This document shows, piece after piece, positions 46,767 to 61,967 of a stretch of 64,000 nucleotides of DNA (position 1 is its first letter; every line of letters begins with the position of its first letter). The position numbers and the translations under genes were made by a program. The stretch is from NCBI GenBank assembly GCA_963848505.1, contig CAWKEB010000002.1, positions 845,840 through 909,839 on the forward strand, read 5' to 3'. This stretch comes from Candidatus Krumholzibacteriia bacterium (lineage in GTDB: Bacteria > Krumholzibacteriota > Krumholzibacteriia > LZORAL124-64-63). Under the pieces are notes generated by a model, which worked only from the letters and a program-made list of their open reading frames with translations, searched no databases and was not told where the DNA came from.

Positions 46767-46867
46767 AGGCCTGGAAATCATACGATACAACAAATAGCCG
46801 CGGTCCCCAGCAACTCCTAGCATTCCACTAATATATTTGTCTATAGTATCTTACAGGCTTCGAATTC

Positions 46868-46885
46868 CTGTCAAAAAATTAACAA
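46868..46885 (+). promoter_or_regulatory. Candidate Rex operator CTGTCAA-AAAA-TTAACAA (2 mismatches to the TTGTTAA-N4-TTAACAA palindrome) in an AT-rich island just upstream of rex.
   Basis: Seen in sequence, combined with established knowledge of the Rex box consensus. Confidence 0.3.
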
Positions 46886-46892
46886 TAATTCC

Positions 46893-46921
46893 TTGACCCG
46901 GCTCCGGCAGCGCCGATATTT
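46893..46921 (+). promoter_or_regulatory. Sigma70-like promoter candidate: TTGACC, 16-17 bp spacer, GATATT (-10), ~60 nt upstream of rex.
   Basis: Seen in sequence. Confidence 0.3.
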
Positions 46922-46982
46922 GAGCCCGGATCCATGATGTGATCTTTTTAACGGCGCTTGCGGGCAAACGGAGGCGGGAACC

Positions 46983-47636
46983 ATGGCAAGGAACGCAGTG
47001 CTGCGGCCGCTGACGCCCAGGGCGGTGGGTCGATTGGGTGCCTATCGGCGGGTGTTGGCGGGGCTGGCCGGGCGGGGGATTGCGGCCACCCACTCGCGCG
47101 ACATCGCCGAGCAGACCGGCCTGACCTCGTCACTGGTGCGCCAGGACCTGATGCGGGTCGGCTACCGCGGCAACCCCCAGCACGGTTACGACGTGCAGCG
47201 CCTCGAGGCCGCCATCGCCGAGGCCCTCGGCGCCGAACGGCAGGTGCGGGCCGTGCTGCTGGGGGTGGGCAACCTGGGCCGGGCCATCCTGCAGTACTTC
47301 CGCACGGCCCACCCGGGCCTGGACATGGTGGCGGCGTTCGAGACGGACGTCGACCTGGTGGCCCAGCGCTGCCAGGGCGTGCCGGTGCGGCACCTGGTCG
47401 ATCTCGAATCCATCGTCAAAGAGGAGGGTGTGCGCATCGCCATCCTGGCCATGCCCGCACGCGAGGCGCAGGCGGTGGCCGATCGGCTCGTGGCCGTGGG
47501 CGTGCGCAGCCTGCTGAACTTCACCTCGGGCACGCTGCGGGTGCCGGCCGGCACCTACGTGGAGAACCATGACCTCGGACTTGCCCTGGAGCGGGTCGCC
47601 TACTTCGCCGGCCGGCAGGTGGAGGTCCTCGCATGA
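46983..47636 (+). CDS. rex: Redox-sensing transcriptional repressor Rex.
   Basis: Seen in sequence: N-terminal winged helix (HSRDIAEQTGLTSSLVRQDL) plus a Rossmann NADH-binding domain (LLGVGNLGRAIL). The stop overlaps the hndA start (ATGA). Confidence 0.9.
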   Translation: MARNAVLRPLTPRAVGRLGAYRRVLAGLAGRGIAATHSRDIAEQTGLTSSLVRQDLMRVGYRGNPQHGYDVQRLEAAIAEALGAERQVRAVLLGVGNLGRAILQYFRTAHPGLDMVAAFETDVDLVAQRCQGVPVRHLVDLESIVKEEGVRIAILAMPAREAQAVADRLVAVGVRSLLNFTSGTLRVPAGTYVENHDLGLALERVAYFAGRQVEVLA

Positions 47637-48114
47637 ACGGCCGGCCCAGCACCGTGGCCGAGATCCTGGCGGCCCACCCCGACAGCAGCCGCGAGCACCT
47701 GATCCCCCTGCTGCAGGAGGTGCAGGAAGTCCAGGGCTACGTGTCGCGCGAGGCAGTGGCGCTGCTGGGTGCCCACCTGGGCCTGCCCGCGAGCCGTGTC
47801 TACGGCGTGGCCACCTTCTACAACCAGTTCCGCTTCCAGCCCCTGGGCCGCTACCACGTGCAGGTCTGCCGCGGCACCGCCTGCCACGTCAAGGGGAGCC
47901 AGGGCGTGTTCGCCGCCATCAAGCGCTACCTGCAGGTCGAGGCCGGGCAGACCACGCGCGACGGCGTGTTCAGCCTCGAGGTCGTGGCCTGCCTCGGCGC
48001 CTGCGGCCTGGCGCCGCTGATCTGCGTCAACGGCGAGTTCCATGGCGGCGATCGACAGCGATGCGGCCGTCAGGATCCTGCGCCGCTGCCGGCGAGGAGG
48101 CCGAGACCGCATGA
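47633..48114 (+). pseudogene. HndA / NuoE-like 24-kDa [2Fe-2S] subunit of a NAD(P)-linked [FeFe]-hydrogenase. About two frameshifts near the 3' end.
   Basis: Seen in sequence: NuoE signature ...HVQVCRGTACHVKGSQ...ACLGACGLAPLICVNGEFHG. The frame then hops 2->0->1 before the stop at 48114 (ATGA overlap with the next gene). Confidence 0.6.
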
Positions 48115-50030
48115 ACACCCGGCGACGCATACCCGCCGAACTGGACGCCAGTCGCGCGAGCCGAACTGCGCCGCGAGGTGGTCACCCGTCCGGTGATCCT
48201 CGATCGGCACCGGCACCTGCGGCCTGGGCGCCGGCGCCGCCGCCGTGCTCGAGGCGGTGCGCGGCTTCCCGGTGGTCCAGCGCCACGGGGCCGGGATCGT
48301 CGAGGTCGGCTGCATCGGCCTGTGCGCCAGCGAGCCCATGCTCGACGTGCAGCTGCCGGGCCGGACGCGCCTGTGCTTCGGGCGGGTGGACCGGAGAAGG
48401 CCCGCACCATCCTGGACGCCATGCTGGGCCAGGCGGGCCTGGCCCGAGCTGCCCCTGTTCCAGTTCCCGGTCCCGGGGCTGCAGTCGTGGGAGGGCGTGC
48501 CCACCATCGGCGAGCACCCGTTCTTCGCCCCGCAGACCGCGCTGGGTGCTGCGCAACTGCGGCCTGATCGACCCGCGCAGCCTGGACGAGTACCTGGCCC
48601 GCGGCGGCTACCGCCAGTGGCTGCGGGTGCTGCGGGAGCGTGTCCCCGGCCGAGCGTCTGCGACTTGGTCGAGCGCAGCGGCCTGCGCGGCCGCGGCGGC
48701 GGCGGCTTCCCCACCGGCCGCAAGTGGCGCTTCGCCCAGCAGACGCCTGCCGAGCGCAAGTACCTGATCTGCAACGCCGACGAGGGCGACCCGGGCGCAT
48801 TCATGGACCGCGCCGTGATCGAGGGCGACCCGCACCGCCTGCTCGAGGGCATGGCCATCGCCGCCTACGCCATCGGCGCGACCAAGGCCTACGTCTACAT
48901 CCGCGCCGAGTACCCGCTGGCGATCCGCCGCCTGACGCGGGGCCATCGCCCAGGCCAGGGACTGCGGGCTGCTGGGCCGGCGACATCCTCGGACAGCGGC
49001 TTCGATCTCGACGATCGTCATCAAGAAGGGCGCCGGCGCCTTCGTCTGCGGCGAGGAGACCGCGCTGATCCACCGCATCGAGGGCCGGCGCGGCATGCCG
49101 CGGCCGCGGCCGCCGTTCCCCGCGGTCAGCGGCCTGTTCGGCAAGCCGCACGGTGATCAACAACGTCGAGACCCTGGCCAACCTGCCCGAACATCCTCGC
49201 GCATCGGCGCCGAGGCTTCGCCGCCCTGGGCACCGCCGGCAGCAAGGGCACCAAGGTCTTCGCCCTGTCGGGCAAGGTCGCGCGCACCGGCCTGGTCGAG
49301 GTGGCGATGGGCACCTCCCTGCGCGCAGATCGTCTTCGCCATCGGCGGCGGCATCCCCGGCGGCCGGACGTTCAAGGCCGTGCAGATCGGCGGTCCCTGC
49401 GGCGGCTGCATCCCGGCCAGCCACCTCGACATCCCGGTCGACTACGAGTCGCTCAAGACGCGTGGGCGCCATGATGGGCTCGGGCGGCCTGGTGGTCATG
49501 GACGAGGACAACTGCATGGTCGACGTGGCCAAGTTCTTCATGGACTTCATCCAGCGCGAGAGCTGCGGCAAGTGCATCCCCTGCCGCGAGGGCACGCGCC
49601 ACATGCTGGAGATCCTGCAGGCGATCACCCGCCATCCGCGCAGCGAGCACGACCACAGGCGCTGGAGCGCTTCCAGGGCGTGGTGAACCTGGAGGACCTG
49701 GCCGACGTGATCAAGGACACCCGCCTCTGCGGCCTGGGCAGACCGCGCCCAACCCGGTGCTCAGCACGCTGCGCTGGTTCCGCGACGAGTACGAGGCGCA
49801 CATCTTCGAGCGCCGCTGCCCGGCCGGCGTCTGCACCGAGCTGCTGAGCTACCGCATCGACGCGGCCAAGTGCAACGGCTGCGGTCGCTGCCTGCGCGAG
49901 TGCCCGGCCGACGCCATCGCCGGCGCGCCGCGGCAGCCGCACTACATCGTCCAGGAGCAAGTGCATCGCCTGCGGCACCTGCCTCGACGCCTGCAAGCCT
50001 CGACGCCGTGCTCGTCAGCTGAGGAGACGA
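48111..50030 (+). pseudogene. HndC / NuoF-like 51-kDa flavoprotein subunit (thioredoxin-like [2Fe-2S] N-terminus, NADH/FMN-binding core, C-terminal ferredoxin domains). Broken by more than 12 frameshifts.
   Basis: Seen in sequence: pieces in alternating frames (IGTGTCGLGAGAAAVLEAV; GGGFPTGRKWRFA...KYLICNADEGDPGAFMDR; [20 protein letters not shown]; [12 protein letters not shown]; [13 protein letters not shown]; [23 protein letters not shown]). All motifs are intact but are spread over three frames. Confidence 0.6.
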
Positions 50031-50051
50031 CCATGCCGACGATCGAAGTCA

Positions 50052-51780
50052 ACGGAACCGACGATCGACGCCCGCCAGGGCGAGACCCTGCTGGAGGCGC
50101 TGCGCCGGGCCGGCATCCAGGTGCCCACCCTGTGCCACTTCGAGGGTCTGCCCCCGACCGGCGCCTGCCGCCTGTGCGTGGTGGAGGTGGCGGGCCAGCG
50201 CGGCCTGGTGCCGAGCTGCTCGTACCCGGTCAGCGACGGGATGAAGGTGCAGACCCACTCGCCCGGGCCGTGCGGGCGCGCAAGACCATCGTCGAGCTGC
50301 TGCTGGCCAACCACCCCGACGACTGCCTCTACTGCGTCCGCCACGGCAACTGCGAGCCTGCAGGACCTGGCCGAGGAGCTGGGCGTGCGCTCGCGCCGGC
50401 TGCCGGGCACGCAAGCCGGCACCTGCGGCGGGACATCTCCAGCCCGGCCATCGTGCGCGATCCCGCCAAGTGCATCCTCTGCGGCGCTGCGTGCGGGTCT
50501 GCGAGGAGGTGCAGGGGGTCGGCGGCCATCGACTTCATCGGCCGCGGCAGCGGCGCGCGGGTCGGCACGGCCTTCGGCGAGGGCCTGAACGTCTCGAGCT
50601 GCGTCAACTGCGGCCAGTGCATCATGGTCTGCCCCACCGGGGCGCTGACCGAGCAGCTCGCACCTGGAGCAGGTCGAGGCCGCCCTGCGCGATCCGCGCT
50701 GACGGTCGGTGGTGCAGCACGCGCCGGCGGTCTCGGTCAGCCTGGCCGAGGAGTTCGGCCTGAAGCCGGGCCGGGACGTGGACGGCGCCGCTGAACGCGC
50801 CGCTGCGCCGCCTGGGCTTCGACCAGGGTCTTCGACACCTCGTTCACCGCCGACCTGACGATCATGGAGGAGGCCACCGAGCTGGTGCAGCGGCTGCGGG
50901 GCGGCGGCCCGCTGCCCATGTTCACCAGCTGCTCGCCCGGCTGGGTCAAGTTCGTCGAGACAGTTCTACCCCGAGCTCATCCCCAACCTGTCGACCTGCA
51001 AGAGCCCGCAGCAGATGCTGGGCGCCGTGGTCAAGACCCACTTCGCGGCGCGGCGCGGGCCTCGACCCGGCGCGGATCTTCAGCGTGGCGATCATGCCCT
51101 GCACCGCCAAGAAGTTCGAGGCCGGCCGCCCGGAGATGCTCGCAGCGGCAAGCTGCCGGACGTCGACGCGGTGCTGACCACGCGCGAGCTGGCCCGAGCT
51201 GATCCGCCGGCACGGGCTGCGACCTGGCGCGACCATCGAACCCGAGCCGGCGGACATGCCCTTCGGCGAGCGCTCGCGGCGCGGGCAAGCTCTTCGGCGC
51301 CACCGGCGGCGTGATGGAGGCGGCCCTCCGCACGGCCCACTACCTGGTCACCGGCCGCGAGCTGGCCGACCTCAAGGTCGCGGCGGTGCGCGGGCTCGAC
51401 GGGGTCAAGGAGGCCCGGGTGCAGATCGGCGACCTCGAGCTGGGCGTGGCCGTGGTCAGCGGCCTGGGCAACGCCCGCCGCCTGCTGGAGGAGATCGCGC
51501 GCCGGGCGCCGCGACCTGCACTTCATCGAGGTCATGACCTGCCCCGGCGGCTGCGTCAACGGCGGCGGCCAGCCCATCGGCGTCGACGCGCGCGGCGGTG
51601 CGCGCCCGCATGCAGGCGCTGCTACGCATCGACGCGGCCGAGACCGTGCGCACCGCCCACGGCAACCCGGCGGTGCACCAGCTCTACGCCGAGTTCCTGG
51701 GCGAACCCCTGGGCGAGCGCAGCCACGAGCTGCTGCACACGCACTATGACCCGCGCGAAGGTGCTGAGGTGAGGCCATGA
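50052..51780 (+). pseudogene. hydA: [FeFe]-hydrogenase catalytic subunit HydA/HndD (NuoG-like [2Fe-2S] N-terminus, ferredoxin domains, H-cluster domain). Densely frameshifted.
   Basis: Seen in sequence: MPTIEVNG..., [36 protein letters not shown]-cluster motifs TSCSPGW (L1), MPCTAKKFEA (L2), MTCPGGCVNGGGQP (L3). C-terminal ...LLHTHYDPREG. These lie across all three frames. Confidence 0.65.
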
Positions 51781-53797
51781 ACACCGACACCGCCCTGGTC
51801 TGCGACCATCGGCGAGCGCTGCCGCGTCTGCTACACCTGCGTGCGCGAGTGCCCGGCCAAGGCCATCCGCATCGCGGACGGCCAGGCCGAGGTCATCCCC
51901 GAGCGCTGCATCGGCTGCGGCAACTGCGTGCGCGTGTGCAGCCAGGACGCCAAGCAGGTGCTCGGCTCGCTCGACGCGGCGGCGGCCCTGCTGGCCGGGA
52001 CGGCGCCGGTGGCGGCGGCCGTCGCGCCCTAGCTTCCCGGCCGAGTTCATCGACCTGGCGCCGGAGCAGGTGGTGGGGGCGCTGCGCGCGCTGGGCTTCG
52101 CGCTGGTGCACGAGGTCGGCTTCGGCGCCGACCTGGTGGCCCGGGCCACGCGCCGGCTGCTGGACGCCGATCCCGGCGGCCAGCTGCATCGCACCACGTG
52201 CCCGGCCATCGTGACCTACGTCGAGCAGTTCCAGCCCGGCGCTGGTGGGCAGCCTGCTGCCGATCGTCTCGCCGATGGTGGCCGACGGCCCGCGCACTGC
52301 GCGCAGCTGCACGGCGCGGACCTGAAGGTCGTCTTCATCGGACCCTGCATCGCCAAGAAGGGCGAGGCGGCCGCGACCAGCGGCGCCGGCGAGATCGACG
52401 CCGTGCTGACCTTCGCCGAGCTGCGCGAGCTGCTGGCCAGGGGCGGGATCGATCCGCGGACCGTCGCGCCGGCCGGAGTTCGACCCGCCGCGGGCCGGCC
52501 TGGGCGCGGTCTTTCCGCTTTCGCCGGGGCCTGGTCCAGGCCGCCGGCATGGACGAGGACCTGACCAGCACCGCGGGTCGTCACCGCCGACGGACGCCAG
52601 GATTTTCCCCGAGGCCCTGCGAGGGATTCGCGGCCGGCGACCTCGAGGCCCACCTGCTGGACGTGCTCTGCTGCAACGGCTGCATCATGGGCGCGGGCAT
52701 GACCACCCGCGAGCCCCTGTTCCGCCGGCGCGCCGCGGTCAGCCGCTACGCCGCCAGCGGCGGGCCGAGGGCGACCCGCAGCCCTGGCACGAAGCCATGG
52801 CCCGGCTGGAGGGCCTCGACCTGGCGCGGAGCTTCGCGGCCCGCGACACGCGCATGCCGGTGCCCGGCGAGGACGACATCCGCGCGATCCTGGCCCGCAT
52901 GGGCAAGCGCACGCCGGCCGACGAGCTGAACTGCGGCGCCTGCGGCTACGACACCTGCCGCGAGCACGCCGTGGCCATCTTCGACGGGCATGGCCGAGAG
53001 CGAGATGTGCCTGCCCTACACGATCGAGCAGCTGCGGGCCACGGTCGACGGAGCTGCACGATCTCGCACGCGGAGCTGGCCACGCACCCAGGACGCGCTG
53101 ATGCACAGCGAGACGGCTGGCCAGCATGGGCCAGCTGGCCGCCGGCATCGCCCACGAGGTGAACAACCCGCTGGGCGTGGTCCTGCTCTACGCCCACCTG
53201 CTGCAGGACGAGTGCCGCGGCGACGAGCAGCTGCGGGCCGAGCTGGCCCTGATCGTCGAGCAGGCGGACCGCTGCAAGGGCATCGTCGGCGGCCTGCTGG
53301 ACTTCGCGCGCCAGAACAAGGTGGAGCTGAAACCCGTGGCCCTGGCCGATCTGGTCGAGCGCAGCCTGCAGGGCTGCGTCCTGCCCGACGGCGTGGCGGT
53401 GGCGGCGGAGCACGCCGATCCCGCGCTGTCGGCCGAGCTGGACTCGGGACAGATCGGCCAGGTGCTGGCCAACCTGCTGAGCAACGCCGCGGCGGCCATG
53501 CCCGCCGGCGGCACCATCGTCGTCAGGACCGGATCCGCGGCCGGCGACCGCGTCTGCCTGCAGGTGGTCGACACCGGCAGCGGCATCCCCGAGGCCATCC
53601 GCGCCAGGGTCTTCGAGCCCTTCTTCACCACCAAGGGCCGCGGCACGGGCACCGGTCTGGGCCTGGCCGTCAGCTACGGCATCGTCAAGATGCACCGGGG
53701 CGACCTGGTCTTCACCAGCAACGACGACCCGGCGGCCGGTCCGACCGGGACGACCTTCACCATCACGCTTCCGCGCCACCGCTGGCCGGGGCAGTGA
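51777..53797 (+). pseudogene. HydS-like putative sensory [FeFe]-hydrogenase fused to a histidine kinase: 2x[4Fe-4S] ferredoxin, a degenerate H-cluster domain, a C-terminal Cys cluster, a HisKA domain and an HATPase_c domain. The first ~1.35 kb carry about 10 frameshifts; the kinase part (53126-53797) is in one clean frame.
   Basis: Seen in sequence: CPAKAIRIADGQAEVIPERCIGCGNCVRVCSQ; H-domain-like LVHEVGFGADLVA...TTCPAIV...FIGPCIAKKGE...LDVLCCNGCIMGAG; CGACGYDTCREHA; H-box IAHEVNNPL; G-boxes GTGLGLAVS. Confidence 0.6.
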
Positions 53798-53807
53798 GGA
53801 GAATCGC

Positions 53808-54212
53808 ATGAATGCCGAAGCACGCCCCGTGGTGCTGCTGGTGGACGACGACCAGGACTTCCTGGCGCAGATGGCGCTGCGCTTCGAGCGCGAGGGCTGG
53901 CGCGTCGTGACCGCGCGCAACGAGACCGAGGCCCGGGCCCGGCTGGCCAGCCTGCGCCCCGACCTGGCGGTGCTCGACCTGATGATGGACCAGCTGGACG
54001 GTGGGTTCACCCTGGCCCACCAGATCAAGCAGATGGACGCCGCCATCCCGGTGCTGCTGGTGACCGGGGTCACCGCCGAGACCGGCCTCGCCTTCGAACG
54101 CGCCGGCGCCGGGCAGCGGAGCTGGATCAAGGCCGACGCCGTGCTGGCCAAGCCGGTGCGCTTCGAGCAGATCCGCCGCGAGCTGGACCGCCTGGGCGTG
54201 CGGCATGACTGA
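53808..54212 (+). CDS. Stand-alone response-regulator receiver (REC) protein.
   Basis: Seen in sequence: VVLLVDDDQDF...DLAVLDLMMD...AKPV. Phospho-acceptor Asp context, no output domain. Confidence 0.8.
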   Translation: MNAEARPVVLLVDDDQDFLAQMALRFEREGWRVVTARNETEARARLASLRPDLAVLDLMMDQLDGGFTLAHQIKQMDAAIPVLLVTGVTAETGLAFERAGAGQRSWIKADAVLAKPVRFEQIRRELDRLGVRHD

Positions 54213-55362
54213 GGGGCACGTCCTGCGGGTGCTGGTGGCCGACGACGAGGCGGGCATCCGCAGCGGCGTCAGCCGCGTGGTGTCCCGGTTGTCCGTCGAT
54301 CTCGACGTGTACGGCGGCCCCACGCGCTTCACGGTCGAGGAGGCGGCCGACGGCCTGGCCGCCCGTGCGCGGCTGGATGCCGGCGGCATCGACATCCTGC
54401 TGCTGGACCACTCCATGCCGGGACTGACGGGAATGGAGCTGCTGGAGCAGCTGCGGGCCGCCGGGAGCGAGACGCTGGTGATCATGATCACCGCCTACGC
54501 GTCCCTGGACATGGCCGTGCGGGCCACCAAGCAGGGCGCCTTCGATTTCCTGGGCAAGCCCTTCGCGCCCCATGAGCTGAAGGAGGTCCTGGGCAAGGCC
54601 GCCCGCCACCTGGTGGCCGACCGCGCCGCGCGCCGCCTGGCCGCCGAGCGGCACCGGGTGCGCTTCGAGTTCCTGTCGGTGCTGGCCCATGAGCTGAAGG
54701 CGCCGCTGGGGGCGGTCGAGGGCTACCTGCAGCTGCTGGACGAGGGCGTGACCGACGGCGACCCCGCGACGGTCAAGCACATCGTCGGGCGCTCGCTGGC
54801 CCGGCTCGCGGGCATGCGCAAGCTGATCTTCGACCTGCTGGACCTGACCCGCATCGAGTCGGGGGAGAAGGCGCGCCGCCTGGGGCCGGTCGATGCCGCG
54901 GCCGTGACCGCAGGCGTGGTCGAGACCTTCGCGGCCCGGGCCGCCGAGCGCGGCATCACCGTGCGCACGCAGGTGCGCGGCGATACGGCGCTGACCGGCG
55001 ATCCCGGCGAGCTGGAGATCATGCTCAACAACCTGGTTTCCAACGCCATCAAGTACAACCGGGACGAGGGCCGGGTGGAGATCGGCATCGACGGCAACGA
55101 TCGGCAGCGGCTCGTCGTCACGGTCGCCGACACGGGCATCGGCATGAGCGCCGCCGAGACGGCGCGGCTGTTCGGCGAGTTCGTGCGCATCCGCAACGAC
55201 AAGACCCGCAACATCGAGGGCAGCGGCCTGGGCCTGAGCATCCTGCGCCGGCTGGCCCGCCTCAACGGCGGCGACGTGACCGTCGCCAGCCGGGAAGGCG
55301 ACGGCACGACCTTCACCCTGAGCCTGGCCCGCGACGGCGGCCGACACCGGGAGGCGCCATGA
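54205..55362 (+). CDS. Hybrid REC-histidine kinase (N-terminal receiver, then HisKA and HATPase_c).
   Basis: Seen in sequence: RVLVADDEAGIR...ILLLDHSMPGLTG (REC), LAHELKAPL (H-box), GSGLGLSI (G2). Confidence 0.85.
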   Translation: MTEGHVLRVLVADDEAGIRSGVSRVVSRLSVDLDVYGGPTRFTVEEAADGLAARARLDAGGIDILLLDHSMPGLTGMELLEQLRAAGSETLVIMITAYASLDMAVRATKQGAFDFLGKPFAPHELKEVLGKAARHLVADRAARRLAAERHRVRFEFLSVLAHELKAPLGAVEGYLQLLDEGVTDGDPATVKHIVGRSLARLAGMRKLIFDLLDLTRIESGEKARRLGPVDAAAVTAGVVETFAARAAERGITVRTQVRGDTALTGDPGELEIMLNNLVSNAIKYNRDEGRVEIGIDGNDRQRLVVTVADTGIGMSAAETARLFGEFVRIRNDKTRNIEGSGLGLSILRRLARLNGGDVTVASREGDGTTFTLSLARDGGRHREAP

Positions 55363-56750
55363 GCATCGCCACCGGGCCCCGCATCGACGAGGCCGCCATC
55401 GCCGCGGCCCTGGCCGGCGGCGCCGCCGACGCGGCGCAGGTGCGTGCCATCCTGGCCAAGGCCCGGGACCTGGGCGGCCTGGCGCCGGCGGAGGTGGCCG
55501 CGCTCTGCGGCGTCGAGGACCCGCAGCTGCTGGACGAGATCTTCCACGCCGCCCGCGACGTCAAGGAGACCATCTACGGCCGGCGCCTGGTGCTGTTCAC
55601 GCCGCTGTACGTGTCCAACCTCTGCGCCAACGACTGCGCCTACTGCGCCTTCCGCGCCGGCAACCGCGACCTGGTGCGGCGCGCCCTGACCCGTGACGAG
55701 ATCGCTGCCGAGGTGCGCGCCCTGGTGCGCGAGGGCCACAAGCGGGTGCTGCTGGTGGCGGGCGAGGCGTATCCGGCCGCGGGCTTCGACTACGTGCTCG
55801 AGGCGATCGACACGATCTACGCGGTGCGCGAGGGCCCGGGCGAGATCCGCCGGGTCAACGTGAACGTGGCGCCCCTGGAGGTGGACGAGTTCCGCCGCCT
55901 GGCCGAGCGGCGCATCGGCACCTACCAGATCTTCCAGGAGACCTACCACCGCCCGACCTACGCGCAGGTGCACCGGCGCGGGCGCAAGGCCGACTACGAC
56001 TGGCGGCTGGGCGCCATGGACCGGGCCATGACCGCGGGCATCGAGGATGTGGGCGTGGGCGTGCTCTTCGGGCTGGCGGACTGGCGCTTCGAGCTGCTGG
56101 CCCTGCTGCAGCACGCGGCCCACCTGGAGGAGCGCTTCGGCGTCGGGCCCCACACGGTGAGCGTGCCGCGGCTGGAGCCGGCCCTGGGCTCGGAGCTGGC
56201 CGCCCATCCGCCACGGCCGGTACCGGACCTGGCCTTCCGGCGCATCGTGGCGATCCTGCGGCTGGCGGTGCCCTACACCGGCATCATCATGTCCACCCGC
56301 GAGACGGCGGCCATCCGCCGCGAGACCTTCGCCCTCGGGGTGTCGCAGATCTCCGCCGGCAGCCGCACCAACCCCGGCGGTCATACGGACGGCGACCGGG
56401 ACCACGGCAGCCAGTTCAGCCTGGGCGATCACCGCGACCTGGACGAGGTGGTGCGCGATGTGGCCGAGCTGGGCTACACGCCCTCGTTCTGCACCGGCTG
56501 CTACCGCCTGGGCCGCACCGGGCGCGACTTCATGGACCTGGCCAAGCCGGGACAGATCCGGCGCCATTGCGATCCCAACGGGCTGAGCACCTTCCTCGAG
56601 TACCTGATCGACTACGCCTCGCCGGCGACCGTGGCGGCGGGCGAGCGCGCCATCGCCGCAGCCGTCGCGGCCATGACGGGCGAGCCGCGCCGCCGGGCCG
56701 AGACCATGCTGCTCCAGGTCCGCGGCGGCGGGCGGGACGTGTTCTGCTAG
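55359..56750 (+). CDS. hydG: [FeFe]-hydrogenase maturase HydG (radical-SAM tyrosine lyase), apparently intact.
   Basis: Seen in sequence: CANDCAYCAF radical-SAM motif. 463 aa with a C-terminal CX2CX22C-type cluster (FCTGCYRLGRTGRDFMDLAKPGQIRRHC). Confidence 0.85.
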   Translation: MSIATGPRIDEAAIAAALAGGAADAAQVRAILAKARDLGGLAPAEVAALCGVEDPQLLDEIFHAARDVKETIYGRRLVLFTPLYVSNLCANDCAYCAFRAGNRDLVRRALTRDEIAAEVRALVREGHKRVLLVAGEAYPAAGFDYVLEAIDTIYAVREGPGEIRRVNVNVAPLEVDEFRRLAERRIGTYQIFQETYHRPTYAQVHRRGRKADYDWRLGAMDRAMTAGIEDVGVGVLFGLADWRFELLALLQHAAHLEERFGVGPHTVSVPRLEPALGSELAAHPPRPVPDLAFRRIVAILRLAVPYTGIIMSTRETAAIRRETFALGVSQISAGSRTNPGGHTDGDRDHGSQFSLGDHRDLDEVVRDVAELGYTPSFCTGCYRLGRTGRDFMDLAKPGQIRRHCDPNGLSTFLEYLIDYASPATVAAGERAIAAAVAAMTGEPRRRAETMLLQVRGGGRDVFC

Positions 56751-56761
56751 GAGGCAGGATC

Positions 56762-57985
56762 ATGAGCACGACAAGGGCGACCCGCGGGTTCCGGCTGCAC
56801 GTCGGCCTGGTCGGGCGCCGCAACGTGGGCAAGTCGAGCCTCGTCAATGCGCTGCTGCGCCAGGAGGTGGCCATCGTTTCGCCCACCCCGGGCACGACCA
56901 CCGACCCGGTGAGCAAGCCCATGGAACTGCAGCCCATCGGTCCGGTGCTGCTGATCGACACCGCGGGCGTGGACGACAGCGGCGAACTGGGGGCCCTGCG
57001 GGTCGAGCGCACGCGCGCGCAGCTGGATCGTTGCGACGTGGTCCTGCTGGTGGCTTCCACCGGCATCTGGGGCCGGGTCGAGGAGGAGCTGCTGGCGGAT
57101 CTGCGCCGCCGCGACCTGCCGGTGATCGTGGCCTTCAACCAGGCGGACCGGATCGAGCCCGAGCACTGGCTGGTGCAGGCCCTGCGCGCCCACGGTGCGG
57201 CGGTGGTGGTGGTCTCGGCCACGACCGGCGCGGGTCTTGACGCCCTGCGGGCGGCCATCGTCGCCGCGGCGCCCGCCGACCTGACCCGACCGGCGGCGCT
57301 GTTGGCGGACCTGGTGGGGCCGGGGGGCCTGGCGGTGCTGGTGGTGCCCATCGACAAGGAGGCGCCGGTCGGCCGTCTGATCATGCCCCAGGTCCAGGCC
57401 ATCCGCGATCTGCTGGACGGCGACGCCCACTGCCTGGTGGTCAAGGAGGACGGCCTGGCGGCGGCCCTGGCCCGGCTGCGCACGCCGCCGGACCTGGTGG
57501 TGACCGACAGCCAGGCCTTCGCCCAGGTGGCGGCCATCGTGCCGGCCGAAGTGCCGCTGACCGGATTCTCGGTGCTGATGTCCCGCCAGCGCGGCGACCT
57601 GGCCCTGCAGGCGGCCGGCGCGGCGGCCCTGGATCGCTTGCGGCCCGGCGACCGGGTGCTGATCGCCGAGGCCTGCAGCCATCATCCGGTGGAGGACGAC
57701 ATCGGGCGGGTGAAGCTGCCCCGCTGGCTGGACGAGCTGGCCGGCGGTCCCCTCGAGTTCGAGACCGTGCAGGGCCACGACTTCCCGTCCGACCTGGCGC
57801 CCTACGCCGTAGTCGTGCACTGCGGGGCCTGCACCCTGAACCGGCGCGAGATGACCGCGCGCCTGGAGCAGTGCCGCCGCGCGGGCGTGCCGGTGACCAA
57901 CTACGGCCTGGCCATCGCCCGGCGCTTCGGGGTGTTGGAGCGGGCGCTGGCGCCGTTCTCCCTGCCCGTCGGCGAGGGCTCCTGA
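56762..57985 (+). CDS. hydF: [FeFe]-hydrogenase maturation GTPase HydF, apparently intact.
   Basis: Seen in sequence: GLVGRRNVGKSSLVNALL (P-loop), DTAG, and a C-terminal CSHH...HCGAC cluster-binding motif. RBS aggagg. Confidence 0.85.
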   Translation: MSTTRATRGFRLHVGLVGRRNVGKSSLVNALLRQEVAIVSPTPGTTTDPVSKPMELQPIGPVLLIDTAGVDDSGELGALRVERTRAQLDRCDVVLLVASTGIWGRVEEELLADLRRRDLPVIVAFNQADRIEPEHWLVQALRAHGAAVVVVSATTGAGLDALRAAIVAAAPADLTRPAALLADLVGPGGLAVLVVPIDKEAPVGRLIMPQVQAIRDLLDGDAHCLVVKEDGLAAALARLRTPPDLVVTDSQAFAQVAAIVPAEVPLTGFSVLMSRQRGDLALQAAGAAALDRLRPGDRVLIAEACSHHPVEDDIGRVKLPRWLDELAGGPLEFETVQGHDFPSDLAPYAVVVHCGACTLNRREMTARLEQCRRAGVPVTNYGLAIARRFGVLERALAPFSLPVGEGS

Positions 57986-58086
57986 CGCCGGTCTCCGGCG
58001 GCTGAGGCCGATCTTTTGGGGTCCTGAACCGGTGTCTGTCAGGTTAGTATTACGCGTTGGAAATCAGTAACACCGGAGGTGCCGAA

Positions 58087-58524
58087 ATGCGTTGCGCAGG
58101 GATGTTGGTGCTGCTGCTGGGGCTCGGCCTGCCCGGTAGCGGCCTGGCCCACGGCGTGGACACGGCCGTCGGCGACAGCCGCGCCGTGGTCGTGACCGTC
58201 ACCCATGAGGACGGGTCGCCGCTCGCATTCGAGCCGTTCGAGGTCTTCGCTCCCGAGGGCAGTGCGGTCTTCGCCTCCGGCCGCACCGATCGTCTGGGTC
58301 GCGTGGTCTTCGTGCCCGACCAGGCCGGCGACTGGCGGGTCATGGTCGCCGGCGCCGACGGTCACGGTGCTGCGCTGACGGTGCCGGTGGATGCGGCCAT
58401 GCTGCCGGCGGCCGCGGGCCCGGTCGCTGCGGCCGGCAACCGGCCGTGGCAGGCGGTGACCGGGGTCGCCATCATCTTCGGCGCGTTCGGCCTGGTGGCC
58501 CTGATCCAGGCCCGGCGGCGCTGA
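58087..58524 (+). CDS. Periplasmic or membrane-anchored component of a Ni/Co uptake ECF transporter (CbiN/NikL/DUF4198-like).
   Basis: Seen in sequence: signal peptide, HGVDTAVGDSRAVVVTVTHEDGSP..., C-terminal TM helix. Directly upstream of cbiM. RBS ggaggtg. Confidence 0.5.
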   Translation: MRCAGMLVLLLGLGLPGSGLAHGVDTAVGDSRAVVVTVTHEDGSPLAFEPFEVFAPEGSAVFASGRTDRLGRVVFVPDQAGDWRVMVAGADGHGAALTVPVDAAMLPAAAGPVAAAGNRPWQAVTGVAIIFGAFGLVALIQARRR

Positions 58525-58525
58525 G

Positions 58526-59158
58526 GTGCATATCCCCGACGGCTTCATCGCTCCGCAGGTGTACGGTCCGGCCTACGGCGTGGCGGGCGTGCTGTGGGCC
58601 GTCGGCCTGCGCCGCTTGCGCCGCGTGCTCGATCCGGCGGCCGTGCCGCGCCTGGCGGTTGCGACCGCCGCCGCCTTCGCCCTGATGATGGTGACGGTGC
58701 CGCTGCCCGGCGGCACCACCGTCCACGTCTCGGGCGTGGGCATGATCGCGGCGCTGTTCGGGGTGTGGCAGGCGTTCCTGGCCCTGTCGCTGGTTTTCCT
58801 GATGCAGGCCCTGATGTTCGGCGACGGCGGCGTGACGGCATTGCCGGTCAACGCCCTGGCCATGGGGCTGGGCGGGAGCCTGGCCGCGGCCGGGATGCTG
58901 CGGCTGCTGGGCCGGCGCACCGTGGGCCTGTTCCTGGCGGGGTGGCTGGGCACGGTGGTGCCGGCGGTGATCCTGGCTTTCGTGCTGGGGCTGCAGCCGC
59001 TGCTGGCGAGGGCGGCCGACGGCACGCCGCTGTTCTTTCCCTTCGGCTGGAGCGTGACGCTGCCGGCGGTGATCATTCCGCACCTGGCCGTGGGCGTGGC
59101 CGACGGTGTGCTGACGGTGCTGGCCTGGCGCATCCTGGCGCCGCGGGAGGCCGCATGA
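58526..59158 (+). CDS. cbiM: CbiM/NikM substrate-capture (S) component of the Ni/Co ECF transporter, GTG start.
   Basis: Seen in sequence: N-terminal MHIPDGF, the hallmark of CbiM/NikM. Polytopic. Confidence 0.85.
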   Translation: MHIPDGFIAPQVYGPAYGVAGVLWAVGLRRLRRVLDPAAVPRLAVATAAAFALMMVTVPLPGGTTVHVSGVGMIAALFGVWQAFLALSLVFLMQALMFGDGGVTALPVNALAMGLGGSLAAAGMLRLLGRRTVGLFLAGWLGTVVPAVILAFVLGLQPLLARAADGTPLFFPFGWSVTLPAVIIPHLAVGVADGVLTVLAWRILAPREAA

Positions 59159-60475: not shown

Positions 60476-60477
60476 CC

Positions 60478-60894
60478 ATGACCGACGCCACCCGCCGCTT
60501 CACCGTCTCGCTGCCGGCCTCCCTGATGGACGAGCTGGACCGGCGCATCACCGACCAGGGCTACGACTCGCGCTCCGAGCTGGTGCGCGACCTGATCCGC
60601 GGCCAATTGGTGCGCGACGAGTGGGAGAAGATCGACGGCGAGGTGCACGGCGTGCTGACCATCTGCTACGATCATCATCGGCGCGAGCTGAAGGATCGCC
60701 TGCACGGCATCCAGCACGCCCACTACGTGCACACCCTCTGCAGCACCCACGTGCACCTGGATCACGACAACTGCCTGGAGGCCATCATCCTGCGGGGCAC
60801 GCCGGGCGAGATCGAGAAGATGGCCCTGGCCATCCGCGGCCTCAAGGGCGTGGTGTTGGCCGATCTGGTGCGGGCGGCTGTGCCGCGGGTCTAG
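60478..60894 (+). CDS. nikR: Nickel-responsive regulator NikR (ribbon-helix-helix + ACT-like metal-binding domain).
   Basis: Seen in sequence: RFTVSLPASLMDELDRRI (RHH). C-terminal His/Cys ligand set HAHYVHTLCSTHVHLDHDNC. Confidence 0.85.
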   Translation: MTDATRRFTVSLPASLMDELDRRITDQGYDSRSELVRDLIRGQLVRDEWEKIDGEVHGVLTICYDHHRRELKDRLHGIQHAHYVHTLCSTHVHLDHDNCLEAIILRGTPGEIEKMALAIRGLKGVVLADLVRAAVPRV

Positions 60895-61967
60895 CGCCGC
60901 AGCCAGCGCAAGGCGTCGCCGCGCTCGCCCCAGCCGACGGTTTCACCGATGTCGTCCGCCAAGGCGACCAGCGCGGCGCGGGGATCCTCGGTGCGCGGCT
61001 TGCCGCGGTAGAGGTCGTAGTCGCCGCGGTGGGCCGCGGGGGTGTGGTTGGGCATGACCACGTTGGCGCCCGCCAGCAGGCCGCGCCGGCGGCCGTCGCC
61101 CGCCAGGGCCTCCAGGGCCGTGGTCGCGGCGATGTTCACGTCCGGCAGCAGCAGGCGCGCGCAGGCGATCATGGCCAGGCCCAGGTCCAGCTGTCGGACC
61201 GGGTCGCAGGGCGCGTCGGCCAGGGGCGTGCCGTCGTGGGGGATGAAGGGGCCCATGCCGATCATGTCGATGTCGCGGTCGCACAGGAACAGCAGGTCGG
61301 CCGCGAGGAGGTCGATGGTCTGGCCCGGCAGGCCGATCATCACGCCGGTGCCCACCTGGTAGTCGGCCGCCCGCAGGTGGTCGAGGCAGGCCGCACGCTC
61401 CTGCCAGGTCTGGTCGTCCGGGTGCAGGGCGCGGAACAGACCCTGATCCGCGGTCTCGATGCGCAGCAGATAGCGGTGGGCGCCGGCGCCGCGCCAGCGG
61501 CGGTAGGCCGCGGGGCTCTGCTCTCCCAGCGAAAGGGTGATGCCCAGCTCGCCGCCGGTGGCGGCGTGGACCGCGGTCAGCACCTCGGCCACGAACTCGA
61601 CGAACGCGGGGTCGCGGCGCTCGCCGGCCTGCAGCACGAGGGAGCCGTAGCCGGCGGCGTGGATCTCGGTGGCGGCGGCGACGATCTCCGCCAGGGAGAG
61701 CTCGTAGCGCTCGACGCTGCGGTTGTCGCGGCGGATGCCGCAGTAGCGGCAGTTCCGGACGCAGTGATTGCTGAACTCGATCAGCCCGCGGGGGCGGATG
61801 ATCGCACCGACGCCGGCGCCCTTCACGGCGTAGGCGGCGGCGTGCAGGGCCGCGCGGTCGGCCGGCAGGTCGGCGGCCAACAGCCGGGTCCACTCGGCAC
61901 GGCCGAGGGCCTTGGGGTTGGCGCGGGCGTGGGCCAGCAGGGCTGGGAATGGCGGCGTGCTGGGCAT
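60891..61967 (-). CDS. hydE: [FeFe]-hydrogenase maturase HydE (radical SAM, biotin-synthase-like), apparently intact.
   Basis: Seen in sequence: CVRNCRYC radical-SAM motif, 358 aa. BioB/HydE-like layout with a conserved Cys-containing C-terminal region (CARLLLPD). Confidence 0.75.
   Translation of the reverse strand: MPSTPPFPALLAHARANPKALGRAEWTRLLAADLPADRAALHAAAYAVKGAGVGAIIRPRGLIEFSNHCVRNCRYCGIRRDNRSVERYELSLAEIVAAATEIHAAGYGSLVLQAGERRDPAFVEFVAEVLTAVHAATGGELGITLSLGEQSPAAYRRWRGAGAHRYLLRIETADQGLFRALHPDDQTWQERAACLDHLRAADYQVGTGVMIGLPGQTIDLLAADLLFLCDRDIDMIGMGPFIPHDGTPLADAPCDPVRQLDLGLAMIACARLLLPDVNIAATTALEALAGDGRRRGLLAGANVVMPNHTPAAHRGDYDLYRGKPRTEDPRAALVALADDIGETVGWGERGDALRWLRR

What the first reader, a model, noticed from the sequence alone, without database searches (positions are those of the whole stretch)
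51777..55362. HydS-like sensory [FeFe]-hydrogenase directly fused to a histidine kinase, followed by REC and REC-HK hybrid
Downstream of the catalytic hydA is a second H-cluster-like domain. Its motifs are degenerate (TTCPAIV in place of TSCCPxW, so the proton-relay Cys appears replaced, FIGPCIAKKGE, LCCNGC), as in putative sensory group-C hydrogenases. It is preceded by 2x[4Fe-4S] and followed by a Cys cluster, a HisKA H-box and an HATPase_c domain in one reading frame after indel correction. A stand-alone receiver and a receiver-kinase hybrid follow. Together this looks like an H2-sensing phosphorelay encoded in the same operon as the catalytic hydrogenase and its maturases. Kinase-linked [FeFe] sensory hydrogenases are poorly characterised experimentally.
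Basis: partly seen in the sequence, partly recalled or inferred. Interest (0 to 1): 0.75.

Follow-up and report, generated by a model that had tools for sequence, protein, structure and literature searches.

The report
Hydrogen-sensor kinase beside a hydrogenase operon
This is a gene for a hydrogenase-like iron-sulfur sensor fused to a histidine kinase, followed by two partner signalling proteins, inside a hydrogenase operon; the type is already catalogued ([FeFe] group C1), widespread and untested, and this copy looks broken only because of sequence errors.

Summary
Window 51777-53797 (+) encodes one 668-aa protein: 2x[4Fe-4S], an H-cluster domain, a Cx2Cx4Cx16C cluster, then HisKA and HATPase_c. 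It reads as one frame only after 15-17 single-base indels are removed. These belong to a 5.06-kb indel-dense block (48051-53113; 58 insertions, 9 deletions against a 91%-identical syntenic contig). The block also breaks hydB and hydA, and is most likely a sequence-quality artefact.

More than 7,000 database proteins share this architecture, and at least 590 species genomes from more than 15 phyla carry a relative. The closest named relatives are Krumholzibacteria. Across 120 homologues the four H-cluster cysteines, K358, E361 and S323/P324 are invariant. The proton-relay Cys299 is never present (T/S/A/N), M353 is always Gly and M497 always Leu.

The gene order rex-hydCBA-sensor-REC-REC/HK-hydG-hydF recurs across phyla. 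A structure model puts the fourth cluster cysteine at the start of one long helix that carries the phospho-accepting His455.

The best reading is an H2-responsive sensor kinase feeding a multi-step phosphorelay. That matches HydDB's "[FeFe] group C1, histidine kinase-linked (putative)", and the kinase fusion was noted in 2020 and 2024 papers. It is a new member of a known but biochemically uncharacterised kind.

The parts
46868..46885 (+). Candidate Rex operator, CTGTCAAAAAATTAACAA
   Evidence: It has 3 mismatches to TTGTGAAN4TTCACAA and is one of only 2 such sites in the window. It is conserved in L001 and L002. Function is inferred.
46893..46920 (+). Sigma-70-like promoter, TTGACC-16-GATATT, upstream of rex
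   Evidence: It is the only + strand promoter-like site in 46600-58600 and is conserved in L001 and L002. This is a consensus match only.
46983..47636 (+). rex, redox-sensing (NADH/NAD+) repressor
   Evidence: NCBIfam Rex NF003995, 180.6 bits against a cutoff of 126; Pfam Put_DNA-bind_N and CoA_binding.
47633..48114 (+). hydC (NuoE-like [2Fe-2S] subunit); its 3' end lies in the noisy block
   Evidence: Pfam 2Fe-2S_thioredx, 7.8e-46. Coordinates were mapped through L001.
48111..50022 (+). hydB (NuoF-like flavoprotein subunit), broken by indels
   Evidence: The corrected protein is 631 aa and 89.7% identical to the L001 protein. The L001 gene carries Complex1_51K and NADH_4Fe-4S.
50033..51772 (+). 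hydA, catalytic [FeFe]-hydrogenase subunit, broken by indels; its L1 motif reads TSCSPGW
   Evidence: The corrected 573-aa protein passes NCBIfam FeFe_hydrog_A6, 794.5 bits against a cutoff of 765. The L1 variant is described.
51777..53797 (+). Sensor gene: a 668-aa [FeFe]-hydrogenase-like sensor fused to a histidine kinase. The frame is broken by 15-17 single-base indels up to 53113.
51820..51939 (+). N-terminal 2x[4Fe-4S] ferredoxin-like domain (Cys15 to Cys54)
   Evidence: Pfam Fer4_10, Fer4 and Fer4_9. Six of the eight cluster cysteines (C15, C18, C21, C25, C44, C47, C50 and C54) are invariant.
52024..52698 (+). H-cluster domain core. APS at 52024-52033; L1 STTCP (Cys141 at 52199); L2 GPCIAKKGE (Cys189 at 52346, Lys192 at 52355); L3 LCCNGC (Cys295, Cys296 and Cys299 at 52669-52683).
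   Evidence: Pfam Fe_hyd_lg_C, 1.4e-42. The ligand cysteines are invariant in 120/120 homologues. The fold matches [FeFe]-hydrogenases, Foldseek E 7e-21.
52932..53010 (+). C-terminal Cx2Cx4Cx16C [4Fe-4S] motif (Cys383, Cys386, Cys391, Cys408)
   Evidence: Pfam FeS PF04060, 8e-10. All four cysteines are invariant. The same motif occurs in M2e/M2f HydS enzymes.
53011..53212 (+). Continuous signalling/DHp helix (residues 409-474) carrying the phospho-accepting His455 (53153-53155)
   Evidence: The AF2 model of P0001 shows one helix over residues 409-474. HisKA scores 1.6e-15. H455 is invariant.
53420..53794 (+). HATPase_c catalytic domain (N-box Asn561, G1 Asp594-Gly598, G2 Gly620-Gly624)
   Evidence: Pfam HATPase_c, 2.7e-24. 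The boxes are invariant.
53808..54212 (+). Single-domain response regulator (134 aa)
   Evidence: Pfam Response_reg, 1e-16. D57, T/S86 and K115 are conserved in 71 loci. A small REC gene lies next to the sensor in 56/70 loci.
54205..55362 (+). REC-HisKA-HATPase_c hybrid (385 aa) with no other sensor domain
   Evidence: Pfam domains. D68, T96, K118, H162 and the N, G1 and G2 boxes are invariant in 75 loci. The gene lies next to the sensor in 65/70 loci.
55359..56750 (+). hydG, H-cluster radical SAM maturase
   Evidence: NCBIfam TIGR03955, 491.7 bits against a cutoff of 312.
56762..57985 (+). hydF, H-cluster maturation GTPase
   Evidence: NCBIfam TIGR03918, 529.4 bits against a cutoff of 326.
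57989..58010 (+). Terminator-like hairpin followed by a T-run, directly after hydF
   Evidence: a consensus match only.
60891..61967 (-). hydE, H-cluster radical SAM maturase, 3 kb downstream on the opposite strand
   Evidence: NCBIfam TIGR03956, 294 bits against a cutoff of 254.6.
48051..53113 (.). Indel-dense block, most likely low-quality sequence: 58 insertions and 9 deletions relative to L001

Best explanation
The gene encodes a cytoplasmic sensor histidine kinase whose input module is a complete but catalytically handicapped [FeFe]-hydrogenase.

Proposed mechanism, all inferred:
1. H2 binds and is slowly split at the H-cluster, which lacks the Cys299 proton relay.
2. The electrons reduce the accessory clusters, including the C-terminal [4Fe-4S] bound by Cx2Cx4Cx16C.
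3. The fourth ligand of that cluster, Cys408, sits at the N-terminal end of one uninterrupted helix that carries His455. The redox or structural state of the cluster is therefore passed directly to the DHp bundle and shifts the balance between autokinase and phosphatase activity.
4. The phosphoryl group goes to the co-encoded receivers: the REC domain of a REC-HK hybrid that has no sensor domain, and/or the 134-aa single-domain REC. This forms a branched or multi-step relay.
5. The final output is probably transcriptional control of the rex-hydCBA-...-hydGF operon or of fermentation genes, and is encoded elsewhere.
6. Rex adds an NADH/NAD+ input at the operon promoter.

The broken reading frame in this window is a sequence artefact, not biology.

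Shown: the architecture, residue conservation, synteny and fold. Inferred: H2 binding, the coupling mechanism, the phosphotransfer order and the target.
For: - One gene, not two: intact 668-aa orthologues occupy the same operon in L001 and L002, and more than 7,000 homologues share the architecture.
- The H-cluster site is preserved. C300, C355, C499, C503, K358, E361, S323, P324, P301 and P354 are invariant in 120/120 homologues. C299 is never Cys, M353 is always Gly and M497 always Leu.
- The hydG, hydF and hydE maturases are in or near the operon.
- The C-terminal Cx2Cx4Cx16C motif is invariant. It matches the motif of TmHydS and TamHydS, whose authors suspected a signalling role for it.
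- The AF2 model (pLDDT 84.7) shows one helix over residues 409-474, running from Cys408 through His455.
- The kinase and receiver catalytic residues are invariant across phyla.
- The neighbourhood is conserved: REC-HK in 65/70 loci, REC in 56/70, hydCBA directly upstream in 47/55 and rex in 33/55.
- The same sensor module is fused elsewhere to sigma54 activators, GGDEF, MCP, PAS or HisKA_3 outputs. A sigma54-fused relative also follows a multimeric hydrogenase cluster.
- Biochemistry of the related TmHydS and TamHydS fits a sensor: low turnover, a stabilised Hred state and CO tolerance.
- The indels look technical. They are insertion-biased (58:9). They lie in one 5.06-kb block whose ends fall inside genes. 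Coding DNA from the end of the block to hydF shows only one in-frame 3-base difference.
Against: - No experiment shows H2 binding or H2-dependent phosphorylation for any kinase-fused member.
- Authors of a Hydrogenedentota survey could 'hardly find' the canonical P1-P3 motifs in group C1 and doubted that these proteins sense H2.
- No DNA-binding response regulator is encoded in the 64-kb window, so the output is unknown.
- The order of phosphotransfer among the three proteins is untested.
- pN/pS against L001 is higher inside the noisy block (0.42-0.65) than in the flanks (0.10-0.34). Substitution errors could cause this, but relaxed selection cannot be fully excluded.
- The model is of the 90%-identical homologue P0001 as a monomer, without cofactors.
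Confidence: 0.65

Rival explanations
1. It is a redox sensor rather than an H2 sensor. The hydrogenase-like module binds only Fe-S clusters, or exchanges electrons with ferredoxin through its N-terminal clusters. The kinase then reports the cellular ferredoxin or electron-pool state, not H2.
For: The N-terminal 2x[4Fe-4S] domain is of the kind that connects catalytic hydrogenases to ferredoxin. The canonical P1-P3 signatures are not matched, and published authors doubted H2 sensing. No biochemical data exist for this subclass.
Against: Residues that matter only if the 2Fe subcluster is present are invariant: K358, S323/P324, the bridging C503 and an APS motif. The gene is embedded between hydA and the hydG/hydF maturases in many phyla. 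The related TmHydS and TamHydS do assemble an H-cluster and react with H2.
Confidence: 0.15
2. The locus is a decaying pseudogene cluster. The frameshifts in hydB, hydA and the sensor are real mutations, so this organism no longer makes the hydrogenase or the sensor.
For: There are 67 indels in 5.06 kb that break three genes. pN/pS is 0.42-0.65 in the block against 0.10-0.34 in the flanks.
Against: - The block starts inside hydC and ends inside the sensor gene, unrelated to gene borders.
- Flanking genes of the same operon (rex, REC, REC-HK, hydG, hydF) are intact, with no frame-breaking difference between the block and hydF.
- Insertions outnumber deletions 58:9, the opposite of the deletional bias established for bacterial pseudogenes (my own knowledge).
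- The mismatch rate is nearly the same inside and outside the block, 8.1% against 7.6%.
- After indel removal there is no stop codon, and the proteins are 89-90% identical to those of L001.
Confidence: 0.07
3. It is a regulatory or accessory subunit of the HydABC complex, in the manner proposed for 'BfuT' group C3 proteins. It would act mainly by protein-protein contact with the hydrogenase, with the kinase domain secondary or vestigial.
For: The gene lies directly after hydA, with a 4-bp gap, in most genomes. Group C3 proteins have been treated as a fourth subunit of bifurcating hydrogenases.
Against: The kinase catalytic motifs (H455, N, G1, G2) and those of both downstream receivers are invariant across more than 70 loci, which argues for active phosphotransfer. 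The same sensor module is fused to other classical signalling outputs. Some loci have the sensor without hydABC next to it (L004, L012, L062).
Confidence: 0.08

Closest known systems
[FeFe]-hydrogenase group C1, 'histidine kinase-linked (putative)' (Greening 2016 / HydDB, PMC5037454)
   Same: It shares the putative sensory H-domain protein linked to a histidine kinase and encoded next to group A3 bifurcating hydrogenases. HATPase_c-fused C1 proteins next to A3 genes were reported in Hydrogenedentota (PMC11406978) and Elusimicrobia, the latter with Rex nearby (10.1101/765248). Hydrogenedentota and Elusimicrobia genomes are among the loci recovered here.
   Different: I could not run the HydDB classifier, so the C1 label rests on architecture and literature. 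Some HydDB C1 references lack the fused kinase domain. The conserved REC plus REC-HK partner pair and the invariant ligand set documented here are not described in the papers I read.
HydS of Thermotoga maritima (M2f, group C) and TamHydS of Thermoanaerobacter mathranii (M2e, group D)
   Same: It shares the N-terminal 2x[4Fe-4S], the H-domain without Cys299 or the group-A proton pathway, and the C-terminal Cx2Cx4Cx16C cluster. It is also encoded beside a trimeric bifurcating hydrogenase. M353 is Gly as in TmHydS and M497 is Leu as in TamHydS.
   Different: There is no PAS domain; the C-terminal cluster domain runs straight into the DHp helix of a HisKA/HATPase_c kinase. TmHydS and TamHydS have been characterised spectroscopically, whereas no kinase-fused member has.
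Regulatory [NiFe]-hydrogenase system HoxBC-HoxJ-HoxA (HupUV-HupT-HupR), [NiFe] group 2b
   Same: The logic is the same: a slow, sensor-type hydrogenase controls a histidine kinase and a two-component cascade that regulates hydrogenase genes (Table 1 of PMC5037454).
   Different: The metal centre and protein fold are unrelated. Sensor and kinase are separate proteins there, while here they form one polypeptide. HoxA is an NtrC-type regulator encoded with that system; here no DNA-binding regulator is in the window. NtrC-type genes do flank the cluster in some Planctomycetota and Myxococcota loci.
NtrB/AtoS/ZraS-type (HisKA) cytoplasmic sensor kinases
   Same: The kinase core is most similar to AtoS, ZraS and NtrB models (NCBIfam) and to the ZraS structure 9jfj, 3.2e-27.
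   Different: The input is a hydrogenase-like metallodomain rather than a PAS, periplasmic or HAMP module. It scores far below every curated equivalog cutoff.

Membership tests
[FeFe]-hydrogenase group C1 (histidine kinase-linked, putative sensory) | H-domain (Fe_hyd_lg_C) retaining the four cysteine ligands of the H-cluster | tested here: met
   Pfam Fe_hyd_lg_C scores 1.4e-42. Cys141, Cys189, Cys296 (or Cys295) and Cys299 align to CpI C300, C355, C499 and C503 and are invariant in 120/120 homologues.
[FeFe]-hydrogenase group C1 (histidine kinase-linked, putative sensory) | Loss of the group-A proton-relay Cys299 and proton pathway | tested here: met
   Position 299 is Thr in the window and T/S/A/N in the family. 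E279 is deleted, R286 is Leu and S319 is Ala or Leu.
[FeFe]-hydrogenase group C1 (histidine kinase-linked, putative sensory) | Physical or genetic linkage to a histidine kinase | tested here: met
   HisKA and HATPase_c lie in the same polypeptide, and a second kinase gene is adjacent.
[FeFe]-hydrogenase group C1 (histidine kinase-linked, putative sensory) | Placement with HydDB C1 reference sequences by k-NN or phylogeny | not testable with these tools
   HydDB and its reference set are not available here. As a surrogate, a neighbour-joining tree of 150 unlabelled representatives puts the window protein among kinase-fused sensors and far from group A. A supplement search for a shared contig found nothing usable.
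[FeFe]-hydrogenase group C1 (histidine kinase-linked, putative sensory) | H-cluster incorporation and H2 reactivity | not testable with these tools
   This needs protein chemistry. Indirect support comes from the conserved CN-ligand contacts (K358, S323/P324) and the neighbouring hydE, hydF and hydG.
Catalytic group A [FeFe]-hydrogenase | TSCCPxW motif with Cys299, and a score above the NCBIfam TIGR02512 cutoff | tested here: not met
   The motif reads STTCPAI. TIGR02512 scores 87.5 bits against a cutoff of 405.95.
HydS, M2f type (PAS-containing group C, e.g. TmHydS) | PAS domain after the C-terminal Fe-S cluster domain | tested here: not met
   Pfam finds no PAS domain. The model shows a single helix from residue 409 into the DHp. 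PAS-type relatives form mostly separate branches.
HisKA-type sensor histidine kinase | H-box histidine and the N, G1 and G2 ATP-binding boxes | tested here: met
   HisKA scores 1.6e-15 and HATPase_c 2.7e-24. H455, N561/N565, D594-G598 and G620-G624 are invariant.
Multi-step phosphorelay (His-Asp-His-Asp) | Demonstrated phosphotransfer between the three proteins, or an Hpt intermediate | not testable with these tools
   Only the parts are shown: the receivers with D57 and D68 and the second kinase with H162 are all invariant. No Hpt domain was found by Pfam.

The most novel reading that the evidence does not exclude
The kinase-fused sensor, the NtrC-like receiver of the sensor-less REC-HK hybrid and the single-domain REC would form one conserved three-protein H2 phosphorelay found in more than 15 phyla. 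In it a [4Fe-4S] cluster is wired directly to the DHp helix, with its fourth Cys capping the helix that carries the phospho-His. That would be a signal-input mechanism for histidine kinases needing no PAS, HAMP or GAF adaptor. Together with Rex it would set expression of the electron-bifurcating hydrogenase from both H2 pressure and NADH/NAD+. The papers I read describe neither the partner pair nor this coupling geometry.
Probability: 0.3. Interest if true: 0.6.

Novelty: new member of a known kind. Interest (0 to 1): 0.38.

Why it matters
Whether group C [FeFe]-hydrogenases really sense H2, and how the signal leaves the protein, is still open. The 2022 review calls the role putative, and the evidence it cites comes from four other proteins, none kinase-fused (TmHydS, TamHydS, RaHydS, TsHfsB).

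The kinase-fused form offers the simplest readout, ATP-dependent autophosphorylation under H2 versus inert gas. It also comes with its two likely partners encoded next door.

The family-wide data here give concrete targets for that experiment: the invariant H-cluster ligands, the Gly353/Leu497 pocket, the Cys408-to-His455 helix and the conserved REC plus REC-HK pair. For this window specifically, the practical message is that hydB, hydA and the sensor are not pseudogenes to be discarded. They lie in a 5-kb stretch of poor sequence that needs polishing.

Tried and rejected
- Plain tblastn of P0001 against the window gave long gapped alignments that hid the frameshifts. I replaced it with my own frameshift-aware alignment and a DNA alignment to L001.
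I modelled the 90%-identical P0001 instead.
- I searched the supplements of PMC11406978 for the Hydrogenedentota contig shared with locus L057, hoping for an explicit HydDB C1 label. There was no usable hit.
- I looked for a sigma54 promoter (TGGCAC-N5-TTGC, up to 1 mismatch) near the operon. The single window hit is at 7365, fewer than chance expects, so a sigma54-driven operon in this organism is unsupported.
- The canonical Rex box gave only a 3-mismatch site. I kept it as a candidate because it is conserved in relatives.
- A search for any further REC or kinase ORF in the 64-kb window found none.
- NCBIfam has no curated model that the sensor passes.
- PDB sequence and fold searches found no solved sensory or kinase-fused hydrogenase.
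- I rejected programmed frameshifting or recoding: 67 indels spread over three genes, all absent from relatives.
- I considered mirror-tree or mutual-information tests to assign the cognate receiver. I did not run them because about 70 co-inherited triplets would be dominated by phylogeny.

Full report
**What is in the sequence**

No single ORF covers 51777-53797; translated pieces lie in all three + frames. Stitched pieces hit Pfam as follows:
- Fer4-type domains twice
- Fe_hyd_lg_C, 1.4e-42
- PF04060 'FeS', 8e-10
- HisKA, 1.6e-15
- HATPase_c, 2.7e-24

A search of 5.8 billion proteins returned more than 7,000 hits. The top 120 are all 661-742 aa long and carry the same domain set. The best is P0001 (668 aa, 87% identity to my rough stitch), followed by Krumholzibacteria MAG proteins at 77-78%.

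A frameshift-aware alignment of P0001 to the window runs from ATG 51777 to codon 53792-53794. It needs 15 frame corrections, all before 53114. Downstream, the 134-aa REC (53808-54212), the 385-aa REC-HisKA-HATPase_c hybrid (54205-55362), hydG and hydF are intact. Upstream lie rex, hydC, hydB and hydA.

**The frameshifts are a local sequence problem**

Contig L001, which encodes P0001, is syntenic with window 41734-61985 at 90.7% DNA identity. All of its genes are open.

Relative to L001, the window has 58 insertions and 9 deletions between 48051 and 53113, about one every 77 bases. Coding DNA from 53114 to the end of hydF has only one difference in length, an in-frame 3-base one at 55432; a few indels lie in the two genes upstream of rex. 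A codon-position GC scan shows the same block independently.

Removing the indels gives open hydB (631 aa), hydA (573 aa) and sensor (668 aa) genes. Their products are 89-90% identical to the L001 proteins. The single TAG that remains comes from where one inserted base was placed.

Four features point to a technical artefact rather than gene decay:
- The block begins inside hydC and ends inside the sensor gene.
- It is insertion-biased.
- Its mismatch rate (8.1%) is close to that of flanking coding DNA (7.6%).
- pN/pS stays below 1.

Two observations are unexplained or leave a small doubt. pN/pS is higher inside the block (0.42-0.65) than outside (0.10-0.34). The insertions are mostly not homopolymer extensions, only 8 of 56. 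One consequence is that the raw reading 'GGQLHRTTCP' is partly out of frame; the corrected sequence is 'GASCISTTCP'.

**Is the hydrogenase-like domain a sensor type?**

I aligned 120 homologues with CpI residues 251-573 and the window's own HydA.
- Invariant: the four H-cluster ligands (CpI C300, C355, C499, C503), plus P301, S323, P324, P354, K358 and E361.
- Cys299, the proton relay, is never present. It is T in 51 sequences, S in 48, A in 18 and N in 3; the window has Thr140.
- E279 is deleted, R286 is Leu and S319 is Ala or Leu.
- M353 is Gly in 120/120 and M497 is Leu in 120/120.

This is the pattern published for putative sensory enzymes. TmHydS has M353G, TamHydS has M497L, and neither has C299 or the proton pathway.

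The C-terminal motif Cx2Cx4Cx16C is exactly that of the M2e and M2f HydS classes. Its cysteines (Cys383, Cys386, Cys391, Cys408) are invariant here.

Other tests agree:
- The sensor scores 87.5 bits on the NCBIfam group-A model (cutoff 405.95) and passes no curated model. The neighbouring HydA passes FeFe_hydrog_A6, 794.5 against 765.
- An AF2 model of P0001 (pLDDT 84.7) matches [FeFe]-hydrogenase structures over about 430 residues, Foldseek E 7e-21. No sensory or kinase-fused hydrogenase has been solved.
- A neighbour-joining tree of 150 representatives of the sensor module puts the window protein among kinase-fused forms. They sit on a long branch away from CpI and the window HydA.

**How the signal could leave**

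There is no PAS, HAMP or GAF domain between the cluster domain and the kinase. In the model a single helix spans residues 409-474. It begins immediately after Cys408 and contains the invariant His455. The H-box and the N, G1 and G2 boxes are invariant.

I therefore infer that the state of the C-terminal cluster is passed directly to the DHp helix. Authors of the TamHydS study had already suggested that this cluster serves signalling, because it sits between the H-domain and PAS in M2f enzymes.

**A conserved module**

The best 80 are all MAGs. They include Krumholzibacteriia, Planctomycetota, Hydrogenedentota, Lentisphaerae, Fermentibacteria, Myxococcota, Acidobacteriota, Bacteroidales, Fibrobacteres, Marinimicrobia, Thermoleophilia and Elusimicrobia.

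Labelling the neighbours with the window's own proteins gave these counts:

| Feature | Loci |
|---|---|
| REC-HK hybrid next to the sensor | 65 of 70 with enough flank |
| Small REC next to the sensor | 56 of 70 |
| hydCBA directly upstream | 47 of 55 |
| rex upstream | 33 of 55 |

The phospho-acceptor Asp, the T/S and the K of both receivers are conserved, and His162 and the ATP-binding boxes of the hybrid kinase are invariant, in 71-75 loci.

The window holds no other REC or kinase ORF, so no DNA-binding regulator is nearby. In seven loci that lack rex, an NtrC-type gene lies divergently upstream; Pfam confirmed REC-Sigma54_activat-HTH_8 in two of them. This fits the AtoS/ZraS/NtrB-like kinase core.

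Consensus scans bracket a possible 11-kb transcription unit. A sigma70-like promoter lies at 46893-46920, and a terminator-like hairpin lies right after hydF at 57989-58010. A Rex-like palindrome at 46868-46885 is conserved in relatives.

**Wider family**

Searching the sensor module alone (residues 1-418 of P0001) against 1.84 billion representatives found 879 clusters at E <= 1e-30. The same module is joined to several output domains:
- HisKA kinases, the closest group
- a HisKA_3 kinase
- sigma54 AAA+ activators with HTH_8
- GGDEF
- MCP signalling domains
- PAS only

A sigma54-fused example also sits directly after a multimeric hydrogenase cluster. One input module with interchangeable signalling outputs is the usual signature of a sensor domain. 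It is the strongest comparative argument for a sensing role.

**What is already known**

[quoted passage not shown] - A 2024 Hydrogenedentota study counted 53 C1 genes, 21 of them beside A3 genes, and found HATPase_c in them. Its authors could 'hardly find' motifs P1-P3 and questioned H2 sensing.
- A 2022 review calls the sensory role putative. It cites evidence only for TmHydS, TamHydS, RaHydS and TsHfsB.

The window therefore holds a new member of a catalogued but uncharacterised class. What this analysis adds is family-wide proof that the H-cluster ligands and CN contacts are intact, the conserved REC plus REC-HK partners, and the cluster-to-helix geometry.

**Verdict**

H2 sensing itself and the relay order remain inferences. 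Novelty is low to moderate, and the interest lies in the clean experimental handle this subclass offers.

Noticed in passing
window 48051-53113: A sharply bounded 5.06-kb block carries 58 insertions and 9 deletions relative to a 91%-identical syntenic contig. It breaks hydC (3' end), hydB, hydA and two thirds of the sensor gene. The extra bases are mostly C or G and are not homopolymer extensions (8 of 56), which is unusual for common long-read error profiles. The cause of the noise is unknown.
   Followed up: yes
window 50921-50944 (hydA L1 motif); L001 9157; HydA genes of loci L001-L082: The catalytic HydA has TSCSPGW instead of TSCCPGW, so the position of CpI Cys300, a [4Fe-4S]H ligand, is Ser. 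The variant occurs in 58 of 73 HydA genes next to these sensors across phyla. All PDB group-A enzymes that I aligned have TSCCP. It was noted once for Melainabacteria hydrogenases (PMC3787301). Which residue ligates the cluster in this clade is unclear.
   Followed up: partly
proteins P0149, P0152, P0160, P0165, P0166, P0177, P0132, P0142, P0162, P0147; locus L083 8001-10253: The same hydrogenase-like sensor module is fused in other organisms to sigma54 enhancer-binding AAA+ plus HTH_8 domains (one-component regulators), GGDEF diguanylate cyclases, MCP signalling domains and HisKA_3 kinases. The sigma54 fusion in L083 also sits directly after a multimeric hydrogenase cluster. The papers I read do not mention the sigma54 and GGDEF fusions.
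   Followed up: partly
loci L016, L031, L032, L035, L036, L051, L056 (upstream of hydC): In Planctomycetota and Myxococcota loci that lack rex, an NtrC-type response regulator gene lies divergently upstream of hydCBA-sensor; Pfam confirmed REC-Sigma54_activat-HTH_8 in two of them. It is a candidate terminal regulator of the relay in those lineages.
   Followed up: partly
window 46868-46885 and 46935-46952: A conserved AT-rich palindrome, CTGTCAAAAAATTAACAA, abuts the -35 box upstream of rex. A second, similar element (ATGTGATCTTTTTAACGG) lies downstream of the -10 box. Both are conserved in L001 and L002 and may be lineage-specific Rex operators.
   Followed up: partly
window 58526-60894 (+): Between hydF and hydE lies a CbiM-type metal transporter cluster: CbiM at 58526-59158, a further membrane protein, and an ABC ATPase at 59699-60475. 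A NikR nickel-responsive regulator follows, ending at 60894. The arrangement is conserved in L001 and L002. A nickel/cobalt uptake module with NikR inside an [FeFe]-hydrogenase neighbourhood is unexpected.
   Followed up: no
loci L043 2665-4293 (-), L067 3-1790, L073 412-1977: A different hydrogenase-like protein with an N-terminal anti-sigma-type HATPase domain and a degenerate H-domain (SPVCPAVV ... CDGGC ... C-terminal Cys motif) occurs near some of these clusters. It may be related to the M2e/group D type.
   Followed up: no
loci L066, L071, L074, L077, L079, L080, L081 (Bacteroidales/Bacteroidota): Bacteroidales/Bacteroidota loci carry a second, kinase-less sensor-like gene divergently upstream of the same hydCBA operon, in addition to the kinase-fused sensor; the two inspected (L066, L079) look PAS-type (HydS-like). 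One hydrogenase operon would thus be flanked by two different putative H2 sensors.
   Followed up: no
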